IMG/VR virus record: IMGVR_UViG_2547132281_000011
Length of the DNA: 29,115 nucleotides
Reading direction: 5' to 3' (one strand)
From: a virus
Lineage: Duplodnaviria; Heunggongvirae; Uroviricota; Caudoviricetes
The translations under genes and the position numbers were made by a program. Below are positions 17,732 to 29,115 of the stretch, in pieces (position 1 is the first letter of the stretch; the number at the start of each line of letters is the position of its first letter). The notes below the pieces were generated by a model. It was not told the origin of the DNA. It did not search any database and saw only the letters and a program-made list of their open reading frames with translations.

Positions 17732-18055
17732 ATGACTGAACCGAAACAGTCTGGTATTAAAAAAGGGTTCCTCTTTGGGAGCAGAATCGGAGAGCAGAAT
17801 AAAACTTACACGCTAAGCTTGGATGCATGTTGTCCAACCGAAGCGATTATAGAGCTGAAAAACGTTCTGGTTGCACTTGAAGAGAGAAGAAGTCATTTCG
17901 CCAGCGGAGAAAACAATGTCATGCTAATTGGCGATGTGGCGGCGACATCACGATATAAAACCGCACCTAATCCTGCGATTCAGTTATCCTTCGACCAACG
18001 AATACTGGAAGCGGAATCAGCAGTTCCCAGAACGGTTCGTCCTCACCAGTCTTAA
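17732..18055 (+). CDS. Hypothetical protein
   Basis: 107 aa from ATG 17732 behind GGGGAGG; 3' end overlaps the convergent ORF 17967-18542 by 89 nt, so one of the two may be spurious. Confidence 0.35.
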   Translation: MTEPKQSGIKKGFLFGSRIGEQNKTYTLSLDACCPTEAIIELKNVLVALEERRSHFASGENNVMLIGDVAATSRYKTAPNPAIQLSFDQRILEAESAVPRTVRPHQS

Positions 18056-18542
18056 CTGGGGCTGCTTCACCCGACCAGTAAAGCCAAGCACGGTGATACA
18101 GTTCCAGCACCGGGCAATCACTGTTCAATAACCTCATATCTCCGCGATGCACCTGCTCATTTGTGATGACTTCATATATCGGTGCCGTTCTTATTTCGTC
18201 TTCGCCTCTCTCATCAGCCAGTAATTCCCTGAACTTCCTGACTTCACTCAGATGCTGACAGGCAAACAGTGACTGATAGCGGGAAGGTTTATCAGGAAAA
18301 TGGCTACGGCGAACTAACTCAAACACCAGACCGACCAGCAGACTTCTGCTGATTCCACTGTCATCTTCCATTTTAGGGCCGGGGTTATAGAGATAGTTAT
18401 ACCCGTGACTCGAAAGGCCATTGGGATACATCTGATGAAGAAAAGCGGCCAGTTCTGGCATTTCAGGCTCGTATTTTCCGGTAATTACATGACAAGGCGA
18501 AGGCAGACGACTAGCGGAATCAAGTGTGTAATACGTTCCCAT
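17967..18542 (-). CDS. Hypothetical protein, 191 aa
   Basis: Long ORF with AAGGA upstream; no motif I can recognise. Confidence 0.45.
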   Translation of the reverse strand: MGTYYTLDSASRLPSPCHVITGKYEPEMPELAAFLHQMYPNGLSSHGYNYLYNPGPKMEDDSGISRSLLVGLVFELVRRSHFPDKPSRYQSLFACQHLSEVRKFRELLADERGEDEIRTAPIYEVITNEQVHRGDMRLLNSDCPVLELYHRAWLYWSGEAAPVKTGEDEPFWELLIPLPVFVGRRITESQD

Positions 18543-18657
18543 TCAGAAAACAATCCTTATCGAACAAACACTGCACGTAGGTAATACATCCAGTAAATCG
18601 CGTTAATAGAAATCATGTATCTCAAAACTTCACTCTGAACTCTGACAGTGAAAGAAC

Positions 18658-18689
18658 GACCAGCCCGGTACCCGAACTCCGGGCTGGTC
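18658..18689 (-). terminator. Strong hairpin, putative terminator of the repressor-linked operon
   Basis: Perfect 11-bp stem GACCAGCCCGG / CCGGGCTGGTC with 10-nt loop; on the minus strand followed by GTTCTTTCACTG. Confidence 0.4.
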
Positions 18690-18951
18690 ATCGCCCCACA
18701 GGAATGCACTGTGAGCCGACCGAGGTTCAGTCAGTCTCGCGAGACCAGACTAGCCTGCCATATTTTTTATAATTATAAAAGGGTTACAGATTATGAAAAT
18801 GCAGACATTCCCCATCGCTCCATGGATTGGTTGTAAACGCCGCCATGCCAGACATATTCTGGCCGATGTTTCCTAGCACGCACGAATATGAGGCAACTGA
18901 CGAGAATAAATGATGCGTCAGAATGAACCGTCGACACCGTGCTTTCAGGTT

Positions 18952-19563
18952 TCAAAAATCTGGAGAAGGTATATCTATCTGACCGACGTTTCGTAACCAC
19001 ATCTCTTGCTTTGTTTCTTTATTGGTTCGGGCGATATCATTAGCATTGTATCTGCATGTTTTAACCGCAACCTCACGAACTCGTGCTATAGGAGTATTTG
19101 TGTAGAATTTAAGATCTTCCTCTACCGCTCGTATGGCGATAAGCCCTCCACTCTGAAAACCGCTGGTTACTTTTAAAAGATCAACTCCTTGGTTATAAAC
19201 GGCATTACATACGTTAGGGAACTCATCTTCTACAGTTTTGGGGATCATCAGCATATCAGGAAGACCCTGTAACACGTTATCTTCCTTTGGCCTCCATGCC
19301 CTTCCCAAAAAAGCTGTTATAGGTTGTGGTGTAGAAAGAAATGCCAATTCTATATAAAACAAACCACTGTAGTGATCGCGTAACGAATAGACTAGTAAAT
19401 GATCTTTTCCAGTTTTACTTGCATTGCTAAGTTTTATATCAAATGGTTTTTTCTGGTACTTAAGCAATCCATCAACTCCCGCATAATAATGCTTTGAAAC
19501 AGCAACAGAAAGTTGATGTACTTGGTTCGGATAATCTGTTCTATATCGTTTAATTAGCCCCAT
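18952..19563 (-). CDS. Hypothetical 203-aa protein, second gene of repressor-linked accessory operon
   Basis: ATG 19563 with GAGG 6-7 nt upstream, 20 nt after the upstream gene; AT-rich; no recognisable motif. Confidence 0.6.
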   Translation of the reverse strand: MGLIKRYRTDYPNQVHQLSVAVSKHYYAGVDGLLKYQKKPFDIKLSNASKTGKDHLLVYSLRDHYSGLFYIELAFLSTPQPITAFLGRAWRPKEDNVLQGLPDMLMIPKTVEDEFPNVCNAVYNQGVDLLKVTSGFQSGGLIAIRAVEEDLKFYTNTPIARVREVAVKTCRYNANDIARTNKETKQEMWLRNVGQIDIPSPDF

Positions 19564-19583
19564 AATAGCCTCGCAGTTATTTT

Positions 19584-20570
19584 CTATTTCAAAATATAAC
19601 GATATTTACTATCTGGAGTGTTTTGTTGGTCAAGTAATAGAGCTCTACATGGGGCGGTCAAAACACGGGCATAACGACCATCGGGGTTTATGTTGATGTA
19701 ACAAGTTTTCCCTTTAACACCATAAGATTCAGGTATTATTGCCTGTGTAGACACCGTGAATTTAAGGGTATGCCAGCCCGATTTTTGCTTGTAGCTTGAA
19801 ACCGAATGGAAATCATCTGAGTACTTATTTAACCCTGGAAACATGCTGCGTAATGCTGGGATGGAATCTTCTATTATTTTGTCGTTGGTTTTAATGTTAA
19901 AAACGCTGGTTTCAGTAGATGCTACTGCTTTAGCATTTCCCCATTTACCAGCGAACACAATCATTCCCACGAAAAATATTGCGACAAGAACTAACGCTCC
20001 CCCCAACACTACTACATGAGGCTTCCGGCTTCTGGTTGGTACAGTCGCGACTGATTTTGCCCCGCTGTCCGATGGAGGTGATAGAGTTTTACTCTCATCA
20101 CGAATATTCAGCAGATCATCAAAATAACCAAACACAGCCTGCAACTGCTCTTTGTCCAGGCCTTTAAGATGGGTTGTACCGAAATGCTTCAGACAGTATC
20201 TGTCACGGTCAAGACGATACCTAGGGTCAGTAAGCACCATTATTTTGCTGACCAGAAGATTACAGTCCTTCATATTCTGGATCTGTTGTGCATATCTCTG
20301 GAGGATCTCAACCGCACCATGATAATCAGCCGCAGTCATTTCATTAACTGTTTTGGTATTAAGTTTCGTGTGGATCGTCATCCATAGTTCGCGCTTACTT
20401 TCCCCCAGATCAACCAATTCATCCATCAATCTGTGTAAATCGCGTTTTTGCAGCAACGAAATTGGTTGCTGGGCAGAGGGAAGTATGTCAGCAGAATAGT
20501 TATGAATGGTAACATCACCGCTGACAACGTTACCCACATCTCCGTTAACTGTTTGCTTCTCTTTACTCAT
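19584..20570 (-). CDS. Single-pass membrane protein (cytoplasmic ~190-aa N-domain, one TM, ~115-aa C-domain), translationally coupled to repressor gene
   Basis: TM segment VVVLGGALVLVAIFFVGMIVFAG; start ATG overlaps repressor stop (ATGA at 20567-20570); N-terminus NGDVGNVVSGDVTIH echoes the repressor C-terminus. Confidence 0.65.
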   Translation of the reverse strand: MSKEKQTVNGDVGNVVSGDVTIHNYSADILPSAQQPISLLQKRDLHRLMDELVDLGESKRELWMTIHTKLNTKTVNEMTAADYHGAVEILQRYAQQIQNMKDCNLLVSKIMVLTDPRYRLDRDRYCLKHFGTTHLKGLDKEQLQAVFGYFDDLLNIRDESKTLSPPSDSGAKSVATVPTRSRKPHVVVLGGALVLVAIFFVGMIVFAGKWGNAKAVASTETSVFNIKTNDKIIEDSIPALRSMFPGLNKYSDDFHSVSSYKQKSGWHTLKFTVSTQAIIPESYGVKGKTCYININPDGRYARVLTAPCRALLLDQQNTPDSKYRYILK

Positions 20571-21028
20571 TTTCTCTTTGTATTTTTGTTCATTATTCCA
20601 CCTGTTCCTATGGTTACGTTACCTTTGATAACATTCCCCAGAACATCTCCATGAATAACCTGTTCCGCCCGTTCTCTGGAGGAGCCAGTCGTCAATGCCG
20701 ACAAAACTGAACCTTTGACTTGTAACGGTGCTTGCCGGTAGTGCTGAAGTAACTCCATTTCATCACGTGATAAAGTTATACCTGATGATTCCCCAGTAAG
20801 AATGAACTGTACGTTGGCCCCAATTCTTGCAAAGGCTGCAAGTAACTCACCTCCGGGAACTGCAACCCCTCGTTCATATTTCCCCCACATTTCTCTTGAA
20901 ACGCCACAAAGGGCTGCTACTTCAGCCTGCTTGAGTGATAACCGCGAACGCTCAGCTTTGAACCGCGACGCGCAAAGAGAATCAAAATTCACATAAACCT
21001 CATTGACAATGAGAACAATAGTTCTCAT
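20567..21028 (-). CDS. Prophage repressor, XRE/Cro-CI-type HTH (functional analogue of Mu c)
   Basis: HTH motif LSLKQAEVAALCGVSREMWGKYERG; divergent from the early operon; start codon lies within the early-promoter operator region, leader apparently very short. Confidence 0.75.
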   Translation of the reverse strand: MRTIVLIVNEVYVNFDSLCASRFKAERSRLSLKQAEVAALCGVSREMWGKYERGVAVPGGELLAAFARIGANVQFILTGESSGITLSRDEMELLQHYRQAPLQVKGSVLSALTTGSSRERAEQVIHGDVLGNVIKGNVTIGTGGIMNKNTKRK

Positions 21029-22553: not shown

Positions 22554-24323
22554 ATGAATGCTGCCCTGACTGAACGACTGGTTTATGTCGCCCGCGCGGC
22601 ACGTGACGCGGGGCATGGTAAACGCGGTGCAATATACGACGCGGCCTGTGCTGAACTTGGCATGTCCCGCGCCACTCTGCTGCGCAGGCTGAAGGAGGTA
22701 TCTGTGACTGATAAACGCAAAAAACGCGCCGATGCCGGGCGCAGCGCCCTGACCCGCGACGAAGCCGCGCTGATATCTGCCACACTGCGTGAGGCCACCC
22801 GCAAGAACGGTAAGCGTCTCTATTCCATCGCAGATGCAGTGGAAACCCTGCGGGCTAACGGCTTTATCTCCGCAGGCAGAACAGATGAAACCACCGGTGA
22901 GTTTTTCCCGTTGTCCGAAGATGCCATCAGTCGTGCCTTGCGTAACTATGGCCTGCACCCGGAACAACTGGATGCCCCTGCGCCGCATACCGAAGTGGCC
23001 AGTCTGCATCCCAATCACGTCTGGCAGATTGATGCCTCGCTCTGCACGCTTTACTACCTGAGCAATGGACACAAAGGGCTGCAGGTGATGGACAGCGCGA
23101 AGTTCTACAAGAACAAACCCGCTAACCTTGCCCGTATCGCCAGTGACCGCGTGTGGAGTTACGAGATTACCGACCATGCCAGCGGCTGGATTTACGTTGA
23201 GTATGTGACGGGTGCGGAATCCGGTGAGAACCTGTGTTCTGTGCTTATCAACGCCATGCAGGAGCGTGGCGGCGCAGACGTGCTGCACGGCGTGCCGAAA
23301 ATACTCTATCTCGACCCCGGCTCGGCAAACACCGCGGGTATGACGAAAAACATGTGCCGCTCACTGGGCATCGACCTGATAGCGCACAAGCCGCATAACG
23401 CCCGCGCCACCGGACAGGTGGAAAAGGCGCGTGACATTATCGAACGCAAGCTGGAGCCGGGTCTGAAGTTCCGGCCGGTTCACAGTCTGGAAGAACTCAA
23501 CGCGCTGGCCGCGAAATGGCGCAGCCACTTTAACGCCACGGCTGTTCACAGCCGCCACGGTAAAACCCGCACGGATATCTGGCTGAAGATTACTGCTGAG
23601 CAGCTGAAAAAAGCGCCTTCCGTTGAGGTATGTCGTGAACTGGCTGTGGCGGCACCAGAACTCCGCAAAGTCACGCCAAAACTTCGTGTCTCGTTCCGGG
23701 GCACTGAATTTGACGTATCAACGGTACCGGGCGTACTGGTTGGTGAAAAACTGATGATTACCCGTAACCCATGGCGCAGCGATGTGGCACAGGTGGTTCT
23801 GACCGGTGAGGACGGCCACGAGACGTTCTTCCTGGTCGAAGAGGTCAGAAAGAACGAGTTTGGCTTTGCTGAAGGCGCGGCGGTATTTGGCGAAAGTTAC
23901 AAAGCCCTGCCGGAAACCCCGGCACAGATGGCGGCAAAAGAAACCGAAGCGCTGGTTACCGGTACAGACAACGCCGCAGATGCAGCCGCCGCACGCAAGG
24001 CGAAGGCGCTGCCGTTCGGCGGGCGGCTTGACCCGTATAAACATATCGACGACACCACACTTCCGGCCTATATGCCGAAGCGTGGTCAGGCCTCTGACGT
24101 ACGCGGGCCGCGCACTGAACAACGTCCCATGACTCATGTGGAGGCCGCGAAAGCCCTGCGCGATAAGTTCAGCGCCGACGGCCTTACCTGGACGCCGGAA
24201 CATTACCGCCAGTTAACGGCACAGTACCCGGACGGCGTACCGGAAGCCGCACTGGATGAAGTCATGGCCACGCTGACCACACCGGCCCGCAGCAGTGTTA
24301 TCAGCATTGTTAACGGCAACTGA
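22554..24323 (+). CDS. DDE transposase, Mu-type (MuA-like)
   Basis: 589 aa; rve-type core with candidate DDE residues (HVWQIDAS ... LYLDPGSANT ... downstream Glu); GGAGG RBS; followed by overlapping AAA+ ATPase gene. Confidence 0.85.
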   Translation: MNAALTERLVYVARAARDAGHGKRGAIYDAACAELGMSRATLLRRLKEVSVTDKRKKRADAGRSALTRDEAALISATLREATRKNGKRLYSIADAVETLRANGFISAGRTDETTGEFFPLSEDAISRALRNYGLHPEQLDAPAPHTEVASLHPNHVWQIDASLCTLYYLSNGHKGLQVMDSAKFYKNKPANLARIASDRVWSYEITDHASGWIYVEYVTGAESGENLCSVLINAMQERGGADVLHGVPKILYLDPGSANTAGMTKNMCRSLGIDLIAHKPHNARATGQVEKARDIIERKLEPGLKFRPVHSLEELNALAAKWRSHFNATAVHSRHGKTRTDIWLKITAEQLKKAPSVEVCRELAVAAPELRKVTPKLRVSFRGTEFDVSTVPGVLVGEKLMITRNPWRSDVAQVVLTGEDGHETFFLVEEVRKNEFGFAEGAAVFGESYKALPETPAQMAAKETEALVTGTDNAADAAAARKAKALPFGGRLDPYKHIDDTTLPAYMPKRGQASDVRGPRTEQRPMTHVEAAKALRDKFSADGLTWTPEHYRQLTAQYPDGVPEAALDEVMATLTTPARSSVISIVNGN

Positions 24324-24333
24324 GGAGGGAAAC

Positions 24334-25500
24334 ATGCTGGTACTGAAGCAGCAACTGAAAGAGGCCCGTATTCCACAGGCGGTGGTGGCGAGAGCTGTCG
24401 ATGTTTCTGAGGCCACGCTGGCCCAGATTGTGAATCATAACGCGTGGCCCCGCACCAGCCCCGGAGAAGTGCGCCGGCGTCTTGCGTCCTGGCTGGAAAG
24501 TCAGGGGATTGATACAACGAAGAGTTTTGATGCTGTACAGGGCGCGGCCACGCCCCGTACAGCGGGTACCACAGATAAAACGAGCCTCAGTGAGGAAGAG
24601 AATATGTTACTCAAAAAACAGGTGTTATTTCCAGCAACCAAAAAAGCGTTTGGTCTTTTCCGTGACCCGTTCGCCGACGAAGCCATGCAGGGTTCTGATG
24701 ATGTGTTCACCACCCCGGACATTCGCTACGTGCGTGAGGCGCTGTACCAGACAGCCCGTCATGGTGGGTTTATGGCCGTCATCGGTGAGTCCGGTGCGGG
24801 TAAATCCACGCTGCGCCGCGACCTGACTGAACGTATCAACCGCGAGAATGCGCCGGTAATTGTTATCGAGCCATACATCATCGCTATGGAAGACAACGAT
24901 GTGAAAGGGAAAACCCTGAAGGCAGCAGCTATTGCCGAAGCCATTATCAGTACCATCGCACCACTGGAAAGCATCAGACGCAGTCAGGACGCCCGTTTTC
25001 GCCAGTTGCATCGCGTCCTGAAAGACAGCAGCCAGGCGGGGTTCAGCCACGTTCTGGTGATTGAGGAGGCCCACAGTCTGCCCATTCCGACACTGAAACA
25101 CCTCAAACGCTTTTTTGAGCTGGAGTCCGGTTTCAAAAAACTGCTGTCCATCGTGCTGATTGGCCAGCCGGAACTGGCGACAAAACTGTCTGAACGCAAT
25201 ATGGAAGTCCGTGAAGTCGTTCAGCGCTGTGAGGTGGTCGAACTTCTGCCTCTGGACAATAACCTTGAAGAATTTCTGACGTTCAAACTGCAACGGGCCG
25301 GTAAACAGCTGACGGACATTATGGACGCCGGTGCAGTGGATGCCATACGTGCCCGCCTGAGCAATCCGGGAAGTCACCGTAAAAATATGGTCAGCCTGCT
25401 GTATCCGCTGGCCGTCAGTAACCTGGTAATAGCCGCCATGAATCTGGCCGCTGAAATCGGGGTTCCACAGGTCAACGCTGACGTTGTCAAAGGGGTTTAA
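24334..25500 (+). CDS. Transposition AAA+ ATPase (MuB/TniB-like)
   Basis: Walker A GESGAGKST; start ATG 24334 behind GAGGAGGG, just after transposase stop (ORF-track start 24295 is an upstream extension). Confidence 0.85.
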   Translation: MLVLKQQLKEARIPQAVVARAVDVSEATLAQIVNHNAWPRTSPGEVRRRLASWLESQGIDTTKSFDAVQGAATPRTAGTTDKTSLSEEENMLLKKQVLFPATKKAFGLFRDPFADEAMQGSDDVFTTPDIRYVREALYQTARHGGFMAVIGESGAGKSTLRRDLTERINRENAPVIVIEPYIIAMEDNDVKGKTLKAAAIAEAIISTIAPLESIRRSQDARFRQLHRVLKDSSQAGFSHVLVIEEAHSLPIPTLKHLKRFFELESGFKKLLSIVLIGQPELATKLSERNMEVREVVQRCEVVELLPLDNNLEEFLTFKLQRAGKQLTDIMDAGAVDAIRARLSNPGSHRKNMVSLLYPLAVSNLVIAAMNLAAEIGVPQVNADVVKGV

Positions 25501-25793: not shown

Positions 25794-26324
25794 ATGGCAA
25801 AAAGTACAAAAGGGGCAAAACGTATCAAGTCCGCAGCGGCACTCTGGGTACCGGGGACACGCGAAGAGGTCATTGAGGGAATCAGACTGCTCGGTGACGC
25901 ACAACGTGAACTGGTCAGGGCTGAAACAGAAATGAATGACGCCATTGGCGATATCACCGCACGTTATGCCCCGCTCACCGAGAGCCTAAAAAAACGCATG
26001 GCCGAACTGCAGTCCGGTATTCAGACATGGTGTGAGGCACACCGTGATGAACTGACCGGCAACGGGAAGGTGAAGTTCGCTAACCTCACCACCGGCGAGG
26101 TGCAGTGGCGAAACCGTCCGCCATCAGTCAGTATCCGTGGAGCGGATAATGTTATTGAACTACTGAGACGTCTGGGGCTTGAGCGCTTTATTCGTGTAAA
26201 AGAGGAAATAAATAAAGATTCCATTCTGAATGAAAAAGAGGCCGTGAAAAATATTCCCGGTATTACCATAAAAAGTGATATTGAGGATTTTTCAATAATT
26301 CCTTTTGAGCAGGATGTGCAGTAA
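25794..26324 (+). CDS. gam: Gam-like DNA-end binding / host nuclease inhibitor protein
   Basis: 176 aa; MAKSTKGAKRIKSAAALWVP... and ...VQWRNRPPSVSIRG...IEDFSIIPFEQ closely resemble Mu Gam as recalled. Confidence 0.85.
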   Translation: MAKSTKGAKRIKSAAALWVPGTREEVIEGIRLLGDAQRELVRAETEMNDAIGDITARYAPLTESLKKRMAELQSGIQTWCEAHRDELTGNGKVKFANLTTGEVQWRNRPPSVSIRGADNVIELLRRLGLERFIRVKEEINKDSILNEKEAVKNIPGITIKSDIEDFSIIPFEQDVQ

Positions 26325-26421: not shown

Positions 26422-26616
26422 ATGATATTTAAATGTATTCAGTGCGAGAGGGATATAACAGCCCTGCGTTTTCACAGCGCCATCGCCGTGATGTCCGGTA
26501 AGTACCACGTACCTGCAGTACGTGTCACCCTGGTCTGTCCGTACTGCAGCCAGCATTTTTCGGCGGACGTGCCCGTCATGGAATTCTTCCGCCCTGACAG
26601 GGAGGACGCGCAATGA
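26422..26616 (+). CDS. Small zinc-ribbon protein
   Basis: 64 aa with CxxC ... CPYC pairs; GAGGAG RBS. Confidence 0.45.
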   Translation: MIFKCIQCERDITALRFHSAIAVMSGKYHVPAVRVTLVCPYCSQHFSADVPVMEFFRPDREDAQ

Positions 26617-26885
26617 TTACCCCACAGGACGCAGAAAAACGGACCCGCGAAATTGTCGCGGAATATATCCGTGAATGTGGTTGTAAAACCCCCAACCATA
26701 TCCGGCTGGTATTAACCAAATTAATCAGCATGGCCGCGCAGGCTATTGTGGCGACCAACGGAAAGGAGGCTGCCCTGCAGGTACTGGTGAACACACTCAC
26801 CCACACGGCAGAGCATGAGGTGCCGTACCGGATGGAAACTACTGCAGAAGGCGGCCTGCACATCACCGTCGACCGGAAGCACTGA
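26613..26885 (+). CDS. Hypothetical early protein
   Basis: 90 aa, ATGA-coupled to the upstream gene. Confidence 0.45.
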   Translation: MITPQDAEKRTREIVAEYIRECGCKTPNHIRLVLTKLISMAAQAIVATNGKEAALQVLVNTLTHTAEHEVPYRMETTAEGGLHITVDRKH

Positions 26886-26894
26886 GGGCGCGAC

Positions 26895-27200
26895 ATGACA
26901 CGAAACACCGAACTCACCCGCACCGCCCTCTACCGTCTGGCTCTGCAGCGTTTCGGGCCGGATGCACAGGCCCTGAAACTGACAGAAGAGGCCGCCGAAC
27001 TGGCGGCCAGTGCCGCCCGCAACCTGAACGGACAGGGCAGCGAAAGTGACCTCGCGGCAGAGCTGGCAGACGTGGAAATCATGACAGAGCAGTTGCGCCT
27101 TCAGGGGATGGACCGGCTGATTGACTTCCACAAACAGAAAAAACTGGAACGCCTTGCCGCACGGCTGGGCGTCATGTACACCGGAGATACTGAACAATGA
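26895..27200 (+). CDS. MazG-like nucleotide pyrophosphohydrolase-fold protein
   Basis: 101 aa with paired acidic helices LTEEAAELAASAARNL and LAAELADVEIMTEQL typical of the MazG/all-alpha NTP-PPase fold. Confidence 0.5.
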   Translation: MTRNTELTRTALYRLALQRFGPDAQALKLTEEAAELAASAARNLNGQGSESDLAAELADVEIMTEQLRLQGMDRLIDFHKQKKLERLAARLGVMYTGDTEQ

Positions 27201-27880
27201 CAGACCAGGATAAACACATTGAGAAACTGAAAAAGTTGCTGGCGCTGGCCGCATCCGGCAACCCTCACGAGGCCGCTCTGGCACTGCGCCGTGCCCGTAA
27301 ACTGATGGATGTTCACGGCATCACACATTCCGACATCGCCATGAGTGATATTGATGAAACCATCAGTCACTACTGGCCGACAGGCAGCCTCCGTCCACCG
27401 CGCTACATGCTGGGCCTGATGAACATCATCCGCGAGGCATTTGGTGTTAACTCCATCATTCACCCCGGCACATATCCGGGTGTGGGGTTCTACGGCAACC
27501 GGGAACGGGCTGCACTGGCTGCGTACACCTGGGAAGTGCTGGCCCGCCAGCTGAAAAAGGCGCGTCAGCAATATATCAGCGCACAGAACAAAAGAATAAA
27601 AACTGCCACCCGTACCAGCCGTGGTGACCAGTTTGCTGAAGGCTGGGTGCTGGCCGTTATCAGTGAAATACAGTCCTTCGCCCTGACCGATGACGAACGT
27701 GAACTGATGCAGCAGTGGCTGGAACATAAATACCCGCAAACGCAAACCACCAGGGCGCGTAAACCGGGAAGAAGCCGCAATGGCGACGCCTCGCGCTATG
27801 CGGGGTTTCGTGAAGGGCAGAACGTCAGACTGCACCGCCCGGTCAGTGGGCAGGAACAACAGAAACTGGAGGCCAGATGA
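27197..27880 (+). CDS. Early protein with DUF2786-like N-terminus
   Basis: 227 aa; HIEKLKKLLALAASGNPHEAALALRRARKLMDVHGIT matches the pattern of that family as recalled; ATGA-coupled. Confidence 0.55.
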   Translation: MTDQDKHIEKLKKLLALAASGNPHEAALALRRARKLMDVHGITHSDIAMSDIDETISHYWPTGSLRPPRYMLGLMNIIREAFGVNSIIHPGTYPGVGFYGNRERAALAAYTWEVLARQLKKARQQYISAQNKRIKTATRTSRGDQFAEGWVLAVISEIQSFALTDDERELMQQWLEHKYPQTQTTRARKPGRSRNGDASRYAGFREGQNVRLHRPVSGQEQQKLEAR

Positions 27881-28107: not shown

Positions 28108-28312
28108 ATCTGTTGTATGTGCCATGTTCTGGTATTGTTTTGTCGGTTGGTGTACTGCTGAACTGCACCGCCGTTCAGGGTTTTATTCACGTTACAGTGG
28201 TGCCGGCTACTGGATTAGCTGGTCGGTGATGTTCCTGTGCTGGCCTGTGGCGCTTCCTTTATATGTCGATTATATCGGTGGCGCAGGTAAAAGGAGCAAC
28301 GATGATGATTAA
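28097..28312 (+). CDS. Small hydrophobic membrane protein
   Basis: 71 aa from ATG 28097; two hydrophobic stretches rich in W/C/F. Confidence 0.4.
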   Translation: MTAESVVCAMFWYCFVGWCTAELHRRSGFYSRYSGAGYWISWSVMFLCWPVALPLYVDYIGGAGKRSNDDD

Positions 28313-28754
28313 ACAACGTCTTATCCAGCTCATTCATATTGCCCGTAATGAACTGGGTATGGATGAAGACACCTACCGCCAGATGTTACAGGGGCTGACC
28401 GGTAAAGCCTCAACCAAAGGAATGGATACCACACAACTAAACTGCGTGCTGGAATCCATGAAAAGGAAAGGCTTTCGCGTTAAGCCTGCCGGAAAAGCCA
28501 GCTCCGGTTTACCGCTGGATAACCATCCGCAGTCCAGGAAAATCCGTGCGCTATGGATTGAAATGGCTGCTGCCGGCATTGTTCGTGACCGTTCAGAAAA
28601 TGCATTAGCGCGGTGGATCAAGCGGGAAACGGGCATCAGCGCCCTGCGCTGGCTCAATACTGAACAGGCAAGCAGTGTTATTGAGAAACTGAAGAAGTGG
28701 CAGCGCAGAGCTGCGGGAGTAAAACATGAGCGACCTGAATCAGTTTCGAAGTAA
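28302..28754 (+). CDS. gemA: GemA-like early regulatory protein (Mu gp16 family)
   Basis: 150 aa from ATG 28302 behind AAGGAG; position immediately upstream of the Mor-like gene; family assignment from recall only. Confidence 0.65.
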   Translation: MMIKQRLIQLIHIARNELGMDEDTYRQMLQGLTGKASTKGMDTTQLNCVLESMKRKGFRVKPAGKASSGLPLDNHPQSRKIRALWIEMAAAGIVRDRSENALARWIKRETGISALRWLNTEQASSVIEKLKKWQRRAAGVKHERPESVSK

Positions 28755-29115
28755 AGGGCCGGAACTCCTGGTGGAACTGGCACAGCATACCTCTGAGACC
28801 GTTCGCGAGATTATTGATATTGAGCCCGCAATTGCCGACCAGATTGGTCAGGCTGTCGCGAACCGAATGATGCAGGTCTGGGGCGGGCAAAACGTTTATT
28901 TCCCAATGGGCATGGTATGGAAGGTCAGTCAGCGCGACCGGGAAATCTTCAGGGAGTTTAACGGACGCAACCACCACGAACTGGCCCGCAAATTTGGTGT
29001 TTCGCTTCAGTGGGTCTACAGCGTGGTTAAGCGGGTAAGAAAAGAAGAACTGGATCGGATGCAGGGCAAGCTATTTGCTGATGAACCCGATGCAGATACG
29101 GAGAAAAAAGAGTAA
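28726..29115 (+). CDS. mor: Mor-like middle-operon transcriptional activator (Mor/C family)
   Basis: 129 aa; C-terminal HTH ELARKFGVSLQWVYSVVKR and FNGRN motif as in Mu Mor; overlaps GemA-like gene. Confidence 0.75.
   Translation: MSDLNQFRSKGPELLVELAQHTSETVREIIDIEPAIADQIGQAVANRMMQVWGGQNVYFPMGMVWKVSQRDREIFREFNGRNHHELARKFGVSLQWVYSVVKRVRKEELDRMQGKLFADEPDADTEKKE

What the first reader, a model, noticed from the sequence alone, without database searches (positions are those of the whole stretch)
26895..27200. MazG-like nucleotide pyrophosphohydrolase-fold gene in the semi-essential early region
The 101-aa protein has the paired acidic-helix signature (EExxE ... ELADV) of MazG-type NTP-PPases. Such enzymes could alter nucleotide or alarmone pools on induction, or counter nucleotide-based defence signalling. 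It is translationally coupled to the downstream gene.
Basis: partly seen in the sequence, partly recalled or inferred. Interest (0 to 1): 0.35.

Follow-up and report, generated by a model that had tools for sequence, protein, structure and literature searches.

The report
Small MazG-type nucleotide pyrophosphatase, Mu-like prophage
The 101-codon gene is real and belongs to a large phage family of small MazG-type enzymes that most likely cleave nucleoside triphosphates; this is an ordinary, already catalogued kind of phage gene whose substrate is still unknown.

Summary
The ORF at 26895-27200 (+) is a real, conserved gene. It lies in the early operon of a BcepMu-like transposable prophage of E. 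coli, between gam and gemA/mor. These residues are 98-100% conserved across 142 diverse relatives, as are Q25, Q66, K83 and R86.

Evidence for family membership:
- It matches PHROG 2245, annotated "nucleoside triphosphate pyrophosphohydrolase", at E = 3.8e-34.
- A profile comparison with bona fide Pfam-MazG proteins aligns both motifs in register (hhalign 71% probability, E = 3.6e-5).
- 17 of 65 relatives hit Pfam MazG.
- The structure model (pLDDT 95) matches predicted viral NTP pyrophosphohydrolases at TM 0.72-0.80.

Two caveats apply. The protein itself fails the Pfam and NCBIfam cut-offs, and RefSeq calls it hypothetical. The model matches solved MazG structures only weakly (TM about 0.45-0.49).

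The gene is under purifying selection (dN/dS 0.08-0.15). In 70 of the 80 closest viral loci it sits upstream of gemA.

The ATGA overlap with the downstream DUF2786 gene is real but derived. A deletion of about 225 bp removed a 72-codon membrane-protein gene that is present in most relatives.

The substrate and biological role are untested. Verdict: a new member of a known kind, of low interest.

The parts
26895..27200 (+). MazG-like small NTP pyrophosphohydrolase gene (101 aa, stop included)
   Evidence: ORF listed; PHROG 2245 at E = 3.8e-34; family of 10,544 representative clusters at E <= 1e-3; dN/dS 0.08-0.15.
26884..26888 (+). Shine-Dalgarno GAGGG, 6 nt upstream of the ATG, overlapping the stop of the upstream 90-aa gene
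   Evidence: Read directly from the sequence.
26985..26999 (+). Codons for E31-E32-A-A-E35, the first metal-binding motif (EExxE)
   Evidence: E31 100%, E32 98% and E35 98% conserved in 142 representatives; aligned to the EExxE of Bacillus and E. coli MazG.
27060..27074 (+). Codons for E56-L-A-D59-V, the second metal-binding motif (ExxD)
   Evidence: E56 99%, A58 99%, D59 99% and V60 92% conserved; aligned to the EELGDV of bona fide MazG.
27132..27152 (+). Codons for K80...K83-L-E-R86, conserved basic residues of the last helix (putative triphosphate contacts)
   Evidence: K83 96%, R86 96% and L87 97% conserved. A relaxed hhalign run places K83 and R86 on the K and R of 'KFxTRD' in Bacillus MazG, at low confidence.
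27197..27200 (+). ATGA stop/start overlap with the downstream DUF2786/DUF7168 gene
   Evidence: Read from the sequence and ORF coordinates.
27179..27196 (+). Last six codons (TGDTEQ), inherited from a deleted 72-aa membrane-protein gene; the deletion junction lies at about 27178-27183
   Evidence: The PhiKM 72-aa ORF ends ...NTGDTEQ*. The 98-aa form followed by the extra gene is seen in most relatives.
27197..27880 (+). Downstream gene, DUF2786 + DUF7168 protein (227 aa); context only, function unknown
   Evidence: Pfam DUF7168 at 5.4e-26 and DUF2786 at 4.4e-11; PHROG 421.
26613..26885 (+). Upstream 90-aa gene of unknown function (PHROG 3691); context only

Best explanation
The gene encodes a minimal, single-domain member of the MazG / all-alpha nucleoside-triphosphate pyrophosphohydrolase superfamily. 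It is inferred to work as a homo-oligomer. The carboxylates E31/E32/E35 on one helix and E56/D59 on the antiparallel helix would hold Mg2+ ions, and K83/R86 of the last helix would contact the phosphates. The enzyme would cut a (deoxy)nucleoside triphosphate between the alpha and beta phosphates, giving the monophosphate plus pyrophosphate. It is transcribed as part of the long early operon of a BcepMu-like transposable prophage, so it would act at induction or infection, while the phage replicates by transposition using host polymerase. The most likely role is to sanitise or reshape the dNTP pool, for example by removing dUTP or damaged dNTPs, in support of phage DNA synthesis. What is shown: the gene is real, it is conserved, it is homologous to MazG-type enzymes, the catalytic motif is retained, and its genomic context is as described. 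What is inferred: catalysis, oligomeric state, substrate and biological role. I put about 0.75 on 'active NTP pyrophosphohydrolase' and about 0.45 on the dNTP-pool role specifically.
For: PHROG 2245 'nucleoside triphosphate pyrophosphohydrolase' matches at E = 3.8e-34 over residues 1-100, with weaker hits to phrog_4856, phrog_1992 and phrog_715, all annotated NTP-PPase or MazG-like. Pfam PRA-PH (E = 0.035) and TIGR03188 hisE (E = 0.034) hit in register. A profile of close homologues finds 10,544 representative clusters at E <= 1e-3. Of 65 diverse members, 17 hit Pfam MazG (best 2.2e-5), 3 hit MazG-like and 3 hit PRA-PH. The family profile against PDB gives 5ie9 Bacillus MazG at 0.0089, plus iMazG 2q73/2q5z, YpjD 2gta and SSO 1vmg. 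hhalign of the family against PF03819-annotated Bacillus proteins plus both E. coli MazG domains gives 71% probability and E = 3.6e-5, with EExxE and ExxD aligned. The motif residues, K83 and R86 are 96-100% conserved in 142 representatives. AlphaFold2 with the 65-sequence alignment gives pLDDT 94.9 and pTM 0.80, all-helical. BFVD top hits are named NTP pyrophosphohydrolase, at TM 0.72-0.80 and E = 1e-4 to 6e-4. The top PDB structural hits include DCTPP1, the HisN2 PRA-PH domain, 5ie9, YpjD, AF1178 pyrophosphatase and cyanophage S-2L MazG. dN/dS is 0.08-0.15. More distant members in non-Mu phages sit beside thymidylate synthase, an HD phosphohydrolase, a RecE-like exonuclease and a primase-helicase, that is, in nucleotide and DNA metabolism modules. 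No + strand promoter-like site and no nearby + strand terminator-like site separates it from its neighbours.
Against: The window protein does not reach any curated Pfam or NCBIfam threshold (PRA-PH 14.9 bits against a 21.3 cut-off; no MazG hit). Foldseek matches to solved MazG structures are weak (E >= 0.12, TM 0.45-0.49), because the model is two long helices (9-44 and 50-90) rather than a compact four-helix bundle. Position 55, which is E in 77% of the family (the first E of 'EExxD'), is Ala in this protein. Nothing in the sequence identifies the substrate. The neighbour evidence for a dNTP role comes from distant relatives, not from Mu-like phages.
Confidence: 0.72

Rival explanations
1. 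The fold and chemistry are the same, but the physiological substrate is the alarmone (p)ppGpp, or another signalling nucleotide. On this reading the protein is an anti-abortive-infection or host-takeover factor like Atd1 of Pectobacterium phage PcCB7V, keeping the host metabolically active and blunting alarmone-dependent toxin activation during phage development.
For: [quoted passage not shown] The gene sits in the Mu-type semi-essential early region alongside the host-nuclease inhibitor Gam. By my own knowledge of phage Mu, that region carries other host-interaction functions.
Against: No sequence relationship to Atd1 was shown, because the Atd1 sequence was not on hand. tblastn of this protein against 50,697 phage records found only five records, all Escherichia or Klebsiella phages or an uncultured phage, and none from Pectobacterium. 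A characterised cyanophage MazG is a pyrophosphohydrolase that cannot hydrolyse magic-spot nucleotides (PMC6850273, title and abstract). Distant family members neighbour dNTP-metabolism genes rather than anti-defence genes.
Confidence: 0.17
2. A non-catalytic helical protein: a helical hairpin that dimerises and serves as a regulator, scaffold or protein-binding partner, in which the acidic residues are conserved for a reason other than metal-dependent hydrolysis.
For: The high-confidence AlphaFold2 model is a two-helix hairpin rather than the canonical compact bundle. Structural matches to solved enzymes are statistically weak. The best single PDB sequence-profile hit is a non-enzymatic RsbR-type N-terminal helical domain, 3zta, at E = 0.0017. 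Curated family thresholds are not reached.
Against: All five motif carboxylates plus K83 and R86 are near-invariant across a family whose 65-member sample alignment has 35% mean column identity, which is the pattern expected of an active site. The 3zta alignment does not conserve the EExxE residues, and 3zta does not appear among the listed structural hits. Both motifs align in register with bona fide enzymes. An insertion-tolerant region at residues 70-75 in relatives suggests a loop there, which would restore the four-helix topology.
Confidence: 0.08
3. A prophage-encoded defence gene that depletes nucleotides in the lysogen to block superinfecting phages.
For: Nucleotide-depleting enzymes are known defence effectors (general knowledge). 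The prophage is widespread, occurring in 643 of 5,426 complete E. coli genomes.
Against: There is no PADLOC match. The gene is embedded in the lytic early operon, downstream of the transposase genes and co-directional with them, with no promoter-like site of its own, so it should be repressed in the lysogen. In 70 of the 80 closest viral loci it keeps this early-operon position.
Confidence: 0.03

Closest known systems
PHROG 2245 ('nucleoside triphosphate pyrophosphohydrolase') and the viral proteins of that name in BFVD/UniProt (e.g. A0A8S5UYQ2, A0A8S5TW21)
   Same: Direct family membership: E = 3.8e-34 over the whole protein. Predicted structures superpose at TM 0.72-0.80 with 25-31% identity.
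   Different: The PHROG profile is 218 positions long and this protein covers only positions 113-214, so some members carry an extra N-terminal part that is absent here. The family name is an annotation by homology. I found no experimental work on this subfamily.
Single-domain bacterial MazG proteins: Bacillus BA1554-type (PDB 5ie9), B. subtilis YpjD (2gta), integron iMazG (2q5z/2q73), S. solfataricus SSO3215 (1vmg)
   Same: Size of about 100 aa, all-helical, EExxE ... ExxD motifs in the same order and with similar spacing, and conserved K/R in the last helix. Both motifs align in register.
   Different: Sequence similarity is marginal (E = 0.009-0.3 for profile against sequence). Family-specific invariants Q25, Q66 and the 'ADVEIMxEQ' block are not present in the Bacillus or E. 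coli sequences aligned here. The model is a long hairpin with TM of only 0.35-0.45 to these structures.
E. coli MazG (263 aa, mazEFG operon)
   Same: Same superfamily and the same metal-binding motif type.
   Different: E. coli MazG has two tandem MazG domains, whereas this is a single 101-aa domain. hhalign against the single E. coli sequence was uninformative.
Atd1 (MazG-like pyrophosphatase of Pectobacterium phage PcCB7V)
   Same: A phage-encoded protein described as a minimal MazG catalytic domain with twin catalytic motifs. It is a plausible functional analogue.
   Different: No Pectobacterium phage record matched this protein by tblastn at E <= 0.01. The Atd1 substrate, ppGpp, is untested for this family.
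Cyanophage MazG proteins (S-PM2 type; S-2L MazG, PDB 7ody) and human/mouse DCTPP1 (7mu5)
   Same: All are all-alpha NTP-PPases acting on dNTPs. DCTPP1 is the top solved-structure hit (prob 0.97, TM 0.49), and S-2L MazG also appears in the list.
   Different: They are distant, at 20-24% identity over the structural alignment with E > 0.1. Their substrates are dCTP analogues, or dATP/dGTP in a specialised genome-modification pathway for which there is no evidence in this prophage.

Membership tests
MazG / all-alpha NTP pyrophosphohydrolase superfamily (Pfam MazG PF03819, MazG-like PF12643, PRA-PH PF01503) | Metal-binding signature E-x-x-E, then 12-28 residues, then E-x-x-D on two consecutive helices | tested here: met
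   The signature is E32-x-x-E35, 20 residues, E56-x-x-D59, with an additional E31. These residues are 98-100% conserved in 142 representatives and align to the motifs of 5ie9, Bacillus MazG and E. coli MazG. The motif definition is from my knowledge of the MazG literature.
MazG / all-alpha NTP pyrophosphohydrolase superfamily | Score above the curated threshold of a family model | tested here: not met
   For the window protein, Pfam PRA-PH scores 14.9 bits against a 21.3 cut-off and there is no MazG hit at E <= 1. NCBIfam hisE scores 14.4 bits against 42.7. Indirect support exists: 17 of 65 relatives hit Pfam MazG at E <= 0.01, and hhalign against PF03819 proteins gives 71% probability and E = 3.6e-5.
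MazG / all-alpha NTP pyrophosphohydrolase superfamily | All-alpha four-helix-bundle fold, with the motif helices antiparallel | tested here: inconclusive
   The model (pLDDT 94.9) is all-helical, with the two motif helices antiparallel across the 45-49 loop, but DSSP gives two long helices rather than four. TM to solved MazG-type structures is 0.35-0.49 with E >= 0.12, although such structures are prominent among the top hits. TM to predicted viral NTP-PPases is 0.72-0.80.
MazG / all-alpha NTP pyrophosphohydrolase superfamily | Conserved basic residues (K, R) in the C-terminal helix for phosphate binding | tested here: inconclusive
   K83 and R86 are 96% conserved. They fall on the invariant K and R of Bacillus and E. 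coli MazG only in a relaxed, low-confidence hhalign extension.
MazG / all-alpha NTP pyrophosphohydrolase superfamily | Homo-dimer or homo-tetramer forming the active sites | not testable with these tools
MazG / all-alpha NTP pyrophosphohydrolase superfamily | Mg2+-dependent hydrolysis of NTP to NMP + PPi | not testable with these tools
   This needs a biochemical assay.
PHROG 2245 (phage NTP pyrophosphohydrolase) | Significant full-length match to the family profile | tested here: met
   E = 3.8e-34, 119.4 bits, residues 1-100 on profile positions 113-214 of 218.
E. coli-type MazG (two-domain) | Tandem MazG domains, about 260 aa | tested here: not met
   The protein is a single 101-aa domain; E. 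coli MazG is 263 aa.
Atd1-like (p)ppGpp-depleting phage MazG | Sequence relationship to Atd1 and ppGpp hydrolysis | not tested
   The Atd1 sequence and accession are not given in the preprint text. No Pectobacterium phage appears among the five tblastn hits. Activity cannot be tested here.
Dimeric all-alpha dUTPase (Pfam dUTPase_2) | Match to the family model | tested here: not met
   The family is not among the Pfam hits at E <= 1 for the window protein, nor among the families hit by the 65 relatives.

The most novel reading that the evidence does not exclude
This could be a distinct MazG subfamily, marked by the invariant Q25, Q66 and 'ADVEIMxEQ' block and by a domain-swapped helical-hairpin architecture. 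It would have been recruited as a standard early-operon gene of Mu-like transposable phages, with a real substrate that is a regulatory or immune nucleotide ((p)ppGpp, a cyclic oligonucleotide or similar) rather than a dNTP. On that reading it would be a conserved anti-defence or host-takeover enzyme of transposable phages.
Probability: 0.15. Interest if true: 0.5.

Novelty: new member of a known kind. Interest (0 to 1): 0.2.

Why it matters
The practical value is in annotation. RefSeq calls this protein (WP_000197789.1) 'hypothetical' in a prophage carried by about 12% of complete E. coli genomes, and neither Pfam nor NCBIfam captures it. It can be named a MazG-like NTP pyrophosphohydrolase with reasonable confidence. 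Biologically, it shows that BcepMu-type transposable phages routinely carry a nucleotide pyrophosphatase between gam and gemA. These phages have no polymerase of their own that I could see here. The enzyme is an inexpensive target for biochemical assay, and the result could show whether such phages sanitise dNTP pools or interfere with alarmone signalling. It does not open a new class of system.

Tried and rejected
1. Single-sequence phmmer against PDB gave only spurious helical matches (IWS1, EsrB; E >= 0.05).
2. The best hit of the family profile against PDB was 3zta, an RsbR-type N-terminal helical domain (E = 0.0017), followed by designed coiled coils. I rejected these because the catalytic residues are not matched and 3zta does not appear among the listed structural hits.
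3. hhalign of the family against the single E. coli MazG sequence was uninformative (probability 0.5%). It became informative only with an alignment of PF03819 proteins.
4. The homologue search seeded with the 5ie9 fragment returned only sequences of 82-100% identity, so the reference profile is shallow (Neff 2.5).
5. Looking up three distant homologues in assemblies gave contigs of only 0.5-1.2 kb with no usable context.
6. I tried to locate Atd1 or PcCB7V by tblastn with the E. coli MazG C-terminal domain. It found only Salmonella mazG fragments, and the preprint gives no accession.
7. Pfam scans of ten longer relatives, to look for informative domain fusions, gave only sub-threshold hits, for example a weak HAD-like N-terminus in P0182.
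8. PADLOC gave no match for this protein or its neighbours, apart from one insignificant hit (Drt6, E = 0.05) for the upstream 90-aa protein.
9. A spurious-ORF explanation is rejected on conservation and dN/dS.

Full report
**Observation.** The window contains an ATG-initiated ORF at 26895-27200 on the + strand, encoding 101 residues. From the sequence itself, a GAGGG Shine-Dalgarno at 26884-26888 lies 6 nt upstream and overlaps the TGA of the preceding 90-codon gene. The ORF's own TGA (27198-27200) overlaps the ATG (27197-27199) of the next gene, as ATGA. The protein reads ...KLT-EEAAE-LAASAARNLNGQGSESDLAA-ELADV-EIM....

**Context.** Pfam and RefSeq annotation identify the surrounding + strand genes as follows:
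- HTH proteins and a DUF3102 protein;
- a DDE transposase (22554-24323);
- a MuB-like AAA ATPase (24295-25500);
- Gam (25794-26324);
- a 64-aa zinc-ribbon protein and a 90-aa protein;
- the ORF in question;
- a DUF2786/DUF7168 protein (27197-27880);
- two small ORFs;
- GemA (28263-28754) and Mor (28726-29115).

The only close phage record, Escherichia phage PhiKM, is classified as Bcepmuvirus. The region is present in 643 of 5,426 complete E. coli genomes. In strain WS3294A the prophage ends just after mor, next to aes-hemH-adk. The 'semi-essential early region' label is therefore appropriate by analogy with Mu. No + strand promoter-like site and no nearby + strand terminator-like site separates the ORF from its neighbours.

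**Is it a real gene?** Yes. Homologues of 57-98% identity occur in Escherichia, Salmonella, Citrobacter, Enterobacter, Klebsiella, Proteus, Yersinia, Dickeya and Erwinia. A profile of them recovers 10,544 representative clusters at E <= 1e-3 and 2,025 at E <= 1e-10 from 1.84 billion representatives. Against diverged loci, pN is far below pS. Where dS can be estimated, dN/dS is 0.08-0.15.

**What family?**
- The protein matches PHROG 2245 'nucleoside triphosphate pyrophosphohydrolase' at E = 3.8e-34, and three other PHROGs annotated NTP-PPase or MazG-like more weakly.
- It misses the curated thresholds of Pfam and NCBIfam (PRA-PH 14.9 bits against 21.3; hisE 14.4 against 42.7), although those weak hits are in register.
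- Of 65 diverse members of about 95 aa (alignment A3), 17 hit Pfam MazG (best 2.2e-5), 3 hit MazG-like and 3 hit PRA-PH.
- The A3 profile against PDB sequences retrieves 5ie9 (Bacillus MazG, E = 0.0089), iMazG 2q73/2q5z, YpjD 2gta and SSO3215 1vmg. It also retrieves designed helical bundles and one RsbR-type domain, which I reject.
- As a formal test I collected PF03819-annotated Bacillus MazG proteins and aligned them with the two domains of E. coli MazG. hhalign of A3 against that alignment gave 71% probability and E = 3.6e-5, with EExxEL on EExxEL and EEIADV on EELGDV. A relaxed alignment extends this so that K83 and R86 fall on the invariant K and R of the MazG last helix, but at low confidence.

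**Conservation.** In 142 representatives aligned to the family HMM, conservation is:

| Residue | Conserved |
|---|---|
| E31 | 100% |
| E32 | 98% |
| E35 | 98% |
| E56 | 99% |
| D59 | 99% |
| K83 | 96% |
| R86 | 96% |
| A16 | 97% |
| G21 | 99% |
| Q25 | 99% |
| A58 | 99% |
| I62 | 96% |
| M63 | 95% |
| Q66 | 98% |
| L87 | 97% |

The last eight rows are family-specific invariants. Position 55, which is E in 77% of the family, is Ala here. That position is the non-essential first E of the second pair, as far as I know from other MazG proteins.

**Structure.** AlphaFold2 with 16 close homologues gave pLDDT 86.7. With the 65-sequence alignment it gave pLDDT 94.9 and pTM 0.80. The model is all-helical, with helices 9-44 and 50-90 by DSSP. 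Relatives carry insertions at about residues 70-75, so a four-helix topology (9-20, 22-44, 50-70, 75-91) is plausible.

Foldseek against PDB gives no significant E-value. However, MazG-superfamily enzymes are prominent among the top hits: DCTPP1 7mu5 (prob 0.97, TM 0.49), the HisN2 PRA-PH domain, 5ie9, YpjD, AF1178 pyrophosphatase and S-2L MazG. Against BFVD, the top nine hits but one are named NTP pyrophosphohydrolase, with TM 0.61-0.78 and E from 1e-4. The fold criterion is therefore met in kind but not quantitatively against solved structures. A domain-swapped dimer of hairpins is possible and could not be tested.

**Distribution and neighbours.** An IMG/VR scan found at least 399 confirmed relatives. 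Among the best 80 loci, 70 have a GemA homologue downstream on the same strand, nearly all with Mor as well. This includes relatives of only 41-51% identity. A 53%-identical homologue likewise sits between DUF3164-type early genes and GemA-Mor in another Mu-like element. The gene is thus a recurrent component of Mu-like early operons.

The ten most distant loci lack GemA and Mor. In L083 the gene lies among a RecE-like exonuclease, an HD phosphohydrolase, a PAPS-reductase-like protein and thymidylate synthase. In L080 it lies next to a primase-helicase and a DNA methyltransferase/ParB nuclease. Those neighbours favour a nucleotide or DNA metabolism role.

**The coupling claim.** The ATGA overlap is real but derived. 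In PhiKM and most E. coli relatives the ORF is 98 aa (...GVIYTNE*). It is followed by a 72-codon gene for a single-pass membrane protein that ends ...NTGDTEQ*, and the stop of that gene overlaps the DUF2786 start. The window lacks about 225 bp, which joins the MazG-like ORF in frame to the last six codons of that gene. Only 4 of the 22 near-identical viral loci share this form.

**Mechanism and rivals.** I commit to a Mg2+-dependent (d)NTP pyrophosphohydrolase, expressed early, that sanitises or reshapes the dNTP pool during replicative transposition. I put about 0.75 on the enzyme claim and about 0.45 on that role.

The main rival keeps the chemistry but changes the substrate to (p)ppGpp or a signalling nucleotide, as reported for Atd1. 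Two points temper this. A cyanophage MazG does not hydrolyse magic-spot nucleotides (PMC6850273). No link to Atd1 could be shown here.

A non-catalytic helical protein and a lysogen defence gene are both unlikely.

**Novelty.** The family is already catalogued and named by homology in PHROGs and UniProt. I found no paper on this subfamily or on MazG in Mu-like phages. The finding is a new member of a known kind. Its value is mainly better annotation of a widespread E. coli prophage gene and a simple, testable enzyme. Interest is low (0.2).

Noticed in passing
window 27170-27200; L001 6496-7022: The window's MazG-like gene is a deletion variant. Most relatives have a 98-aa ORF followed by a 72-codon gene for a small single-pass membrane protein (MADILREITAWTLILTGLATCLSAGAALAALLMHI...NTGDTEQ). 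About 225 bp are missing here, and the last six codons and the ATGA overlap come from that lost gene.
   Followed up: yes
P0011/P0030/P0031 (169 aa); L055-L077 MazG-like ORFs of about 167 aa: In a clade of Mu-like phages the MazG-like domain carries a C-terminal extension of about 70 aa with a conserved LPxRELLEDWCGAVP motif. The extension has no Pfam match and its function is unknown.
   Followed up: partly
window 17967-21028, - strand: Three ORFs lie between the late genes and the divergent early operon, co-oriented with the HTH repressor-like gene (20567-21028): 191 aa (DUF2441), 203 aa and 328 aa. The latter two have no Pfam or PADLOC hit. Their position suggests lysogen-expressed cargo, possibly a defence or moron module.
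   Followed up: partly
window 26422-26885, + strand: Two small conserved early genes of unknown function lie just upstream: a 64-aa protein with CxxC...CxxC zinc-ribbon spacing (PHROG 3401) and a 90-aa protein (PHROG 3691). In some relatives the 90-aa gene is absent and the zinc-ribbon ORF is called as fused to the MazG-like ORF (P0025, P0037).
   Followed up: partly
window 27197-27880, + strand: The downstream DUF2786 + DUF7168 protein (PHROG 421, unknown function) usually, but not always, follows the MazG-like gene in the enterobacterial Mu-like prophages. It is missing or replaced in several loci (for example L031, L038, L049).
   Followed up: partly
whole window; L002: The prophage is BcepMu-like in layout, with late genes on the - strand and the early operon on the + strand running to the element end about 140 bp after mor. 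It is present in 643 of 5,426 complete E. coli genomes. In WS3294A it abuts aes-hemH-adk.
   Followed up: partly
L083 3638-8816: A distant family member (37% identity) sits in a non-Mu phage module with a RecE-like exonuclease, an HD phosphohydrolase, a PAPS-reductase-like protein and thymidylate synthase. This cluster looks like nucleotide metabolism or possibly DNA modification.
   Followed up: no
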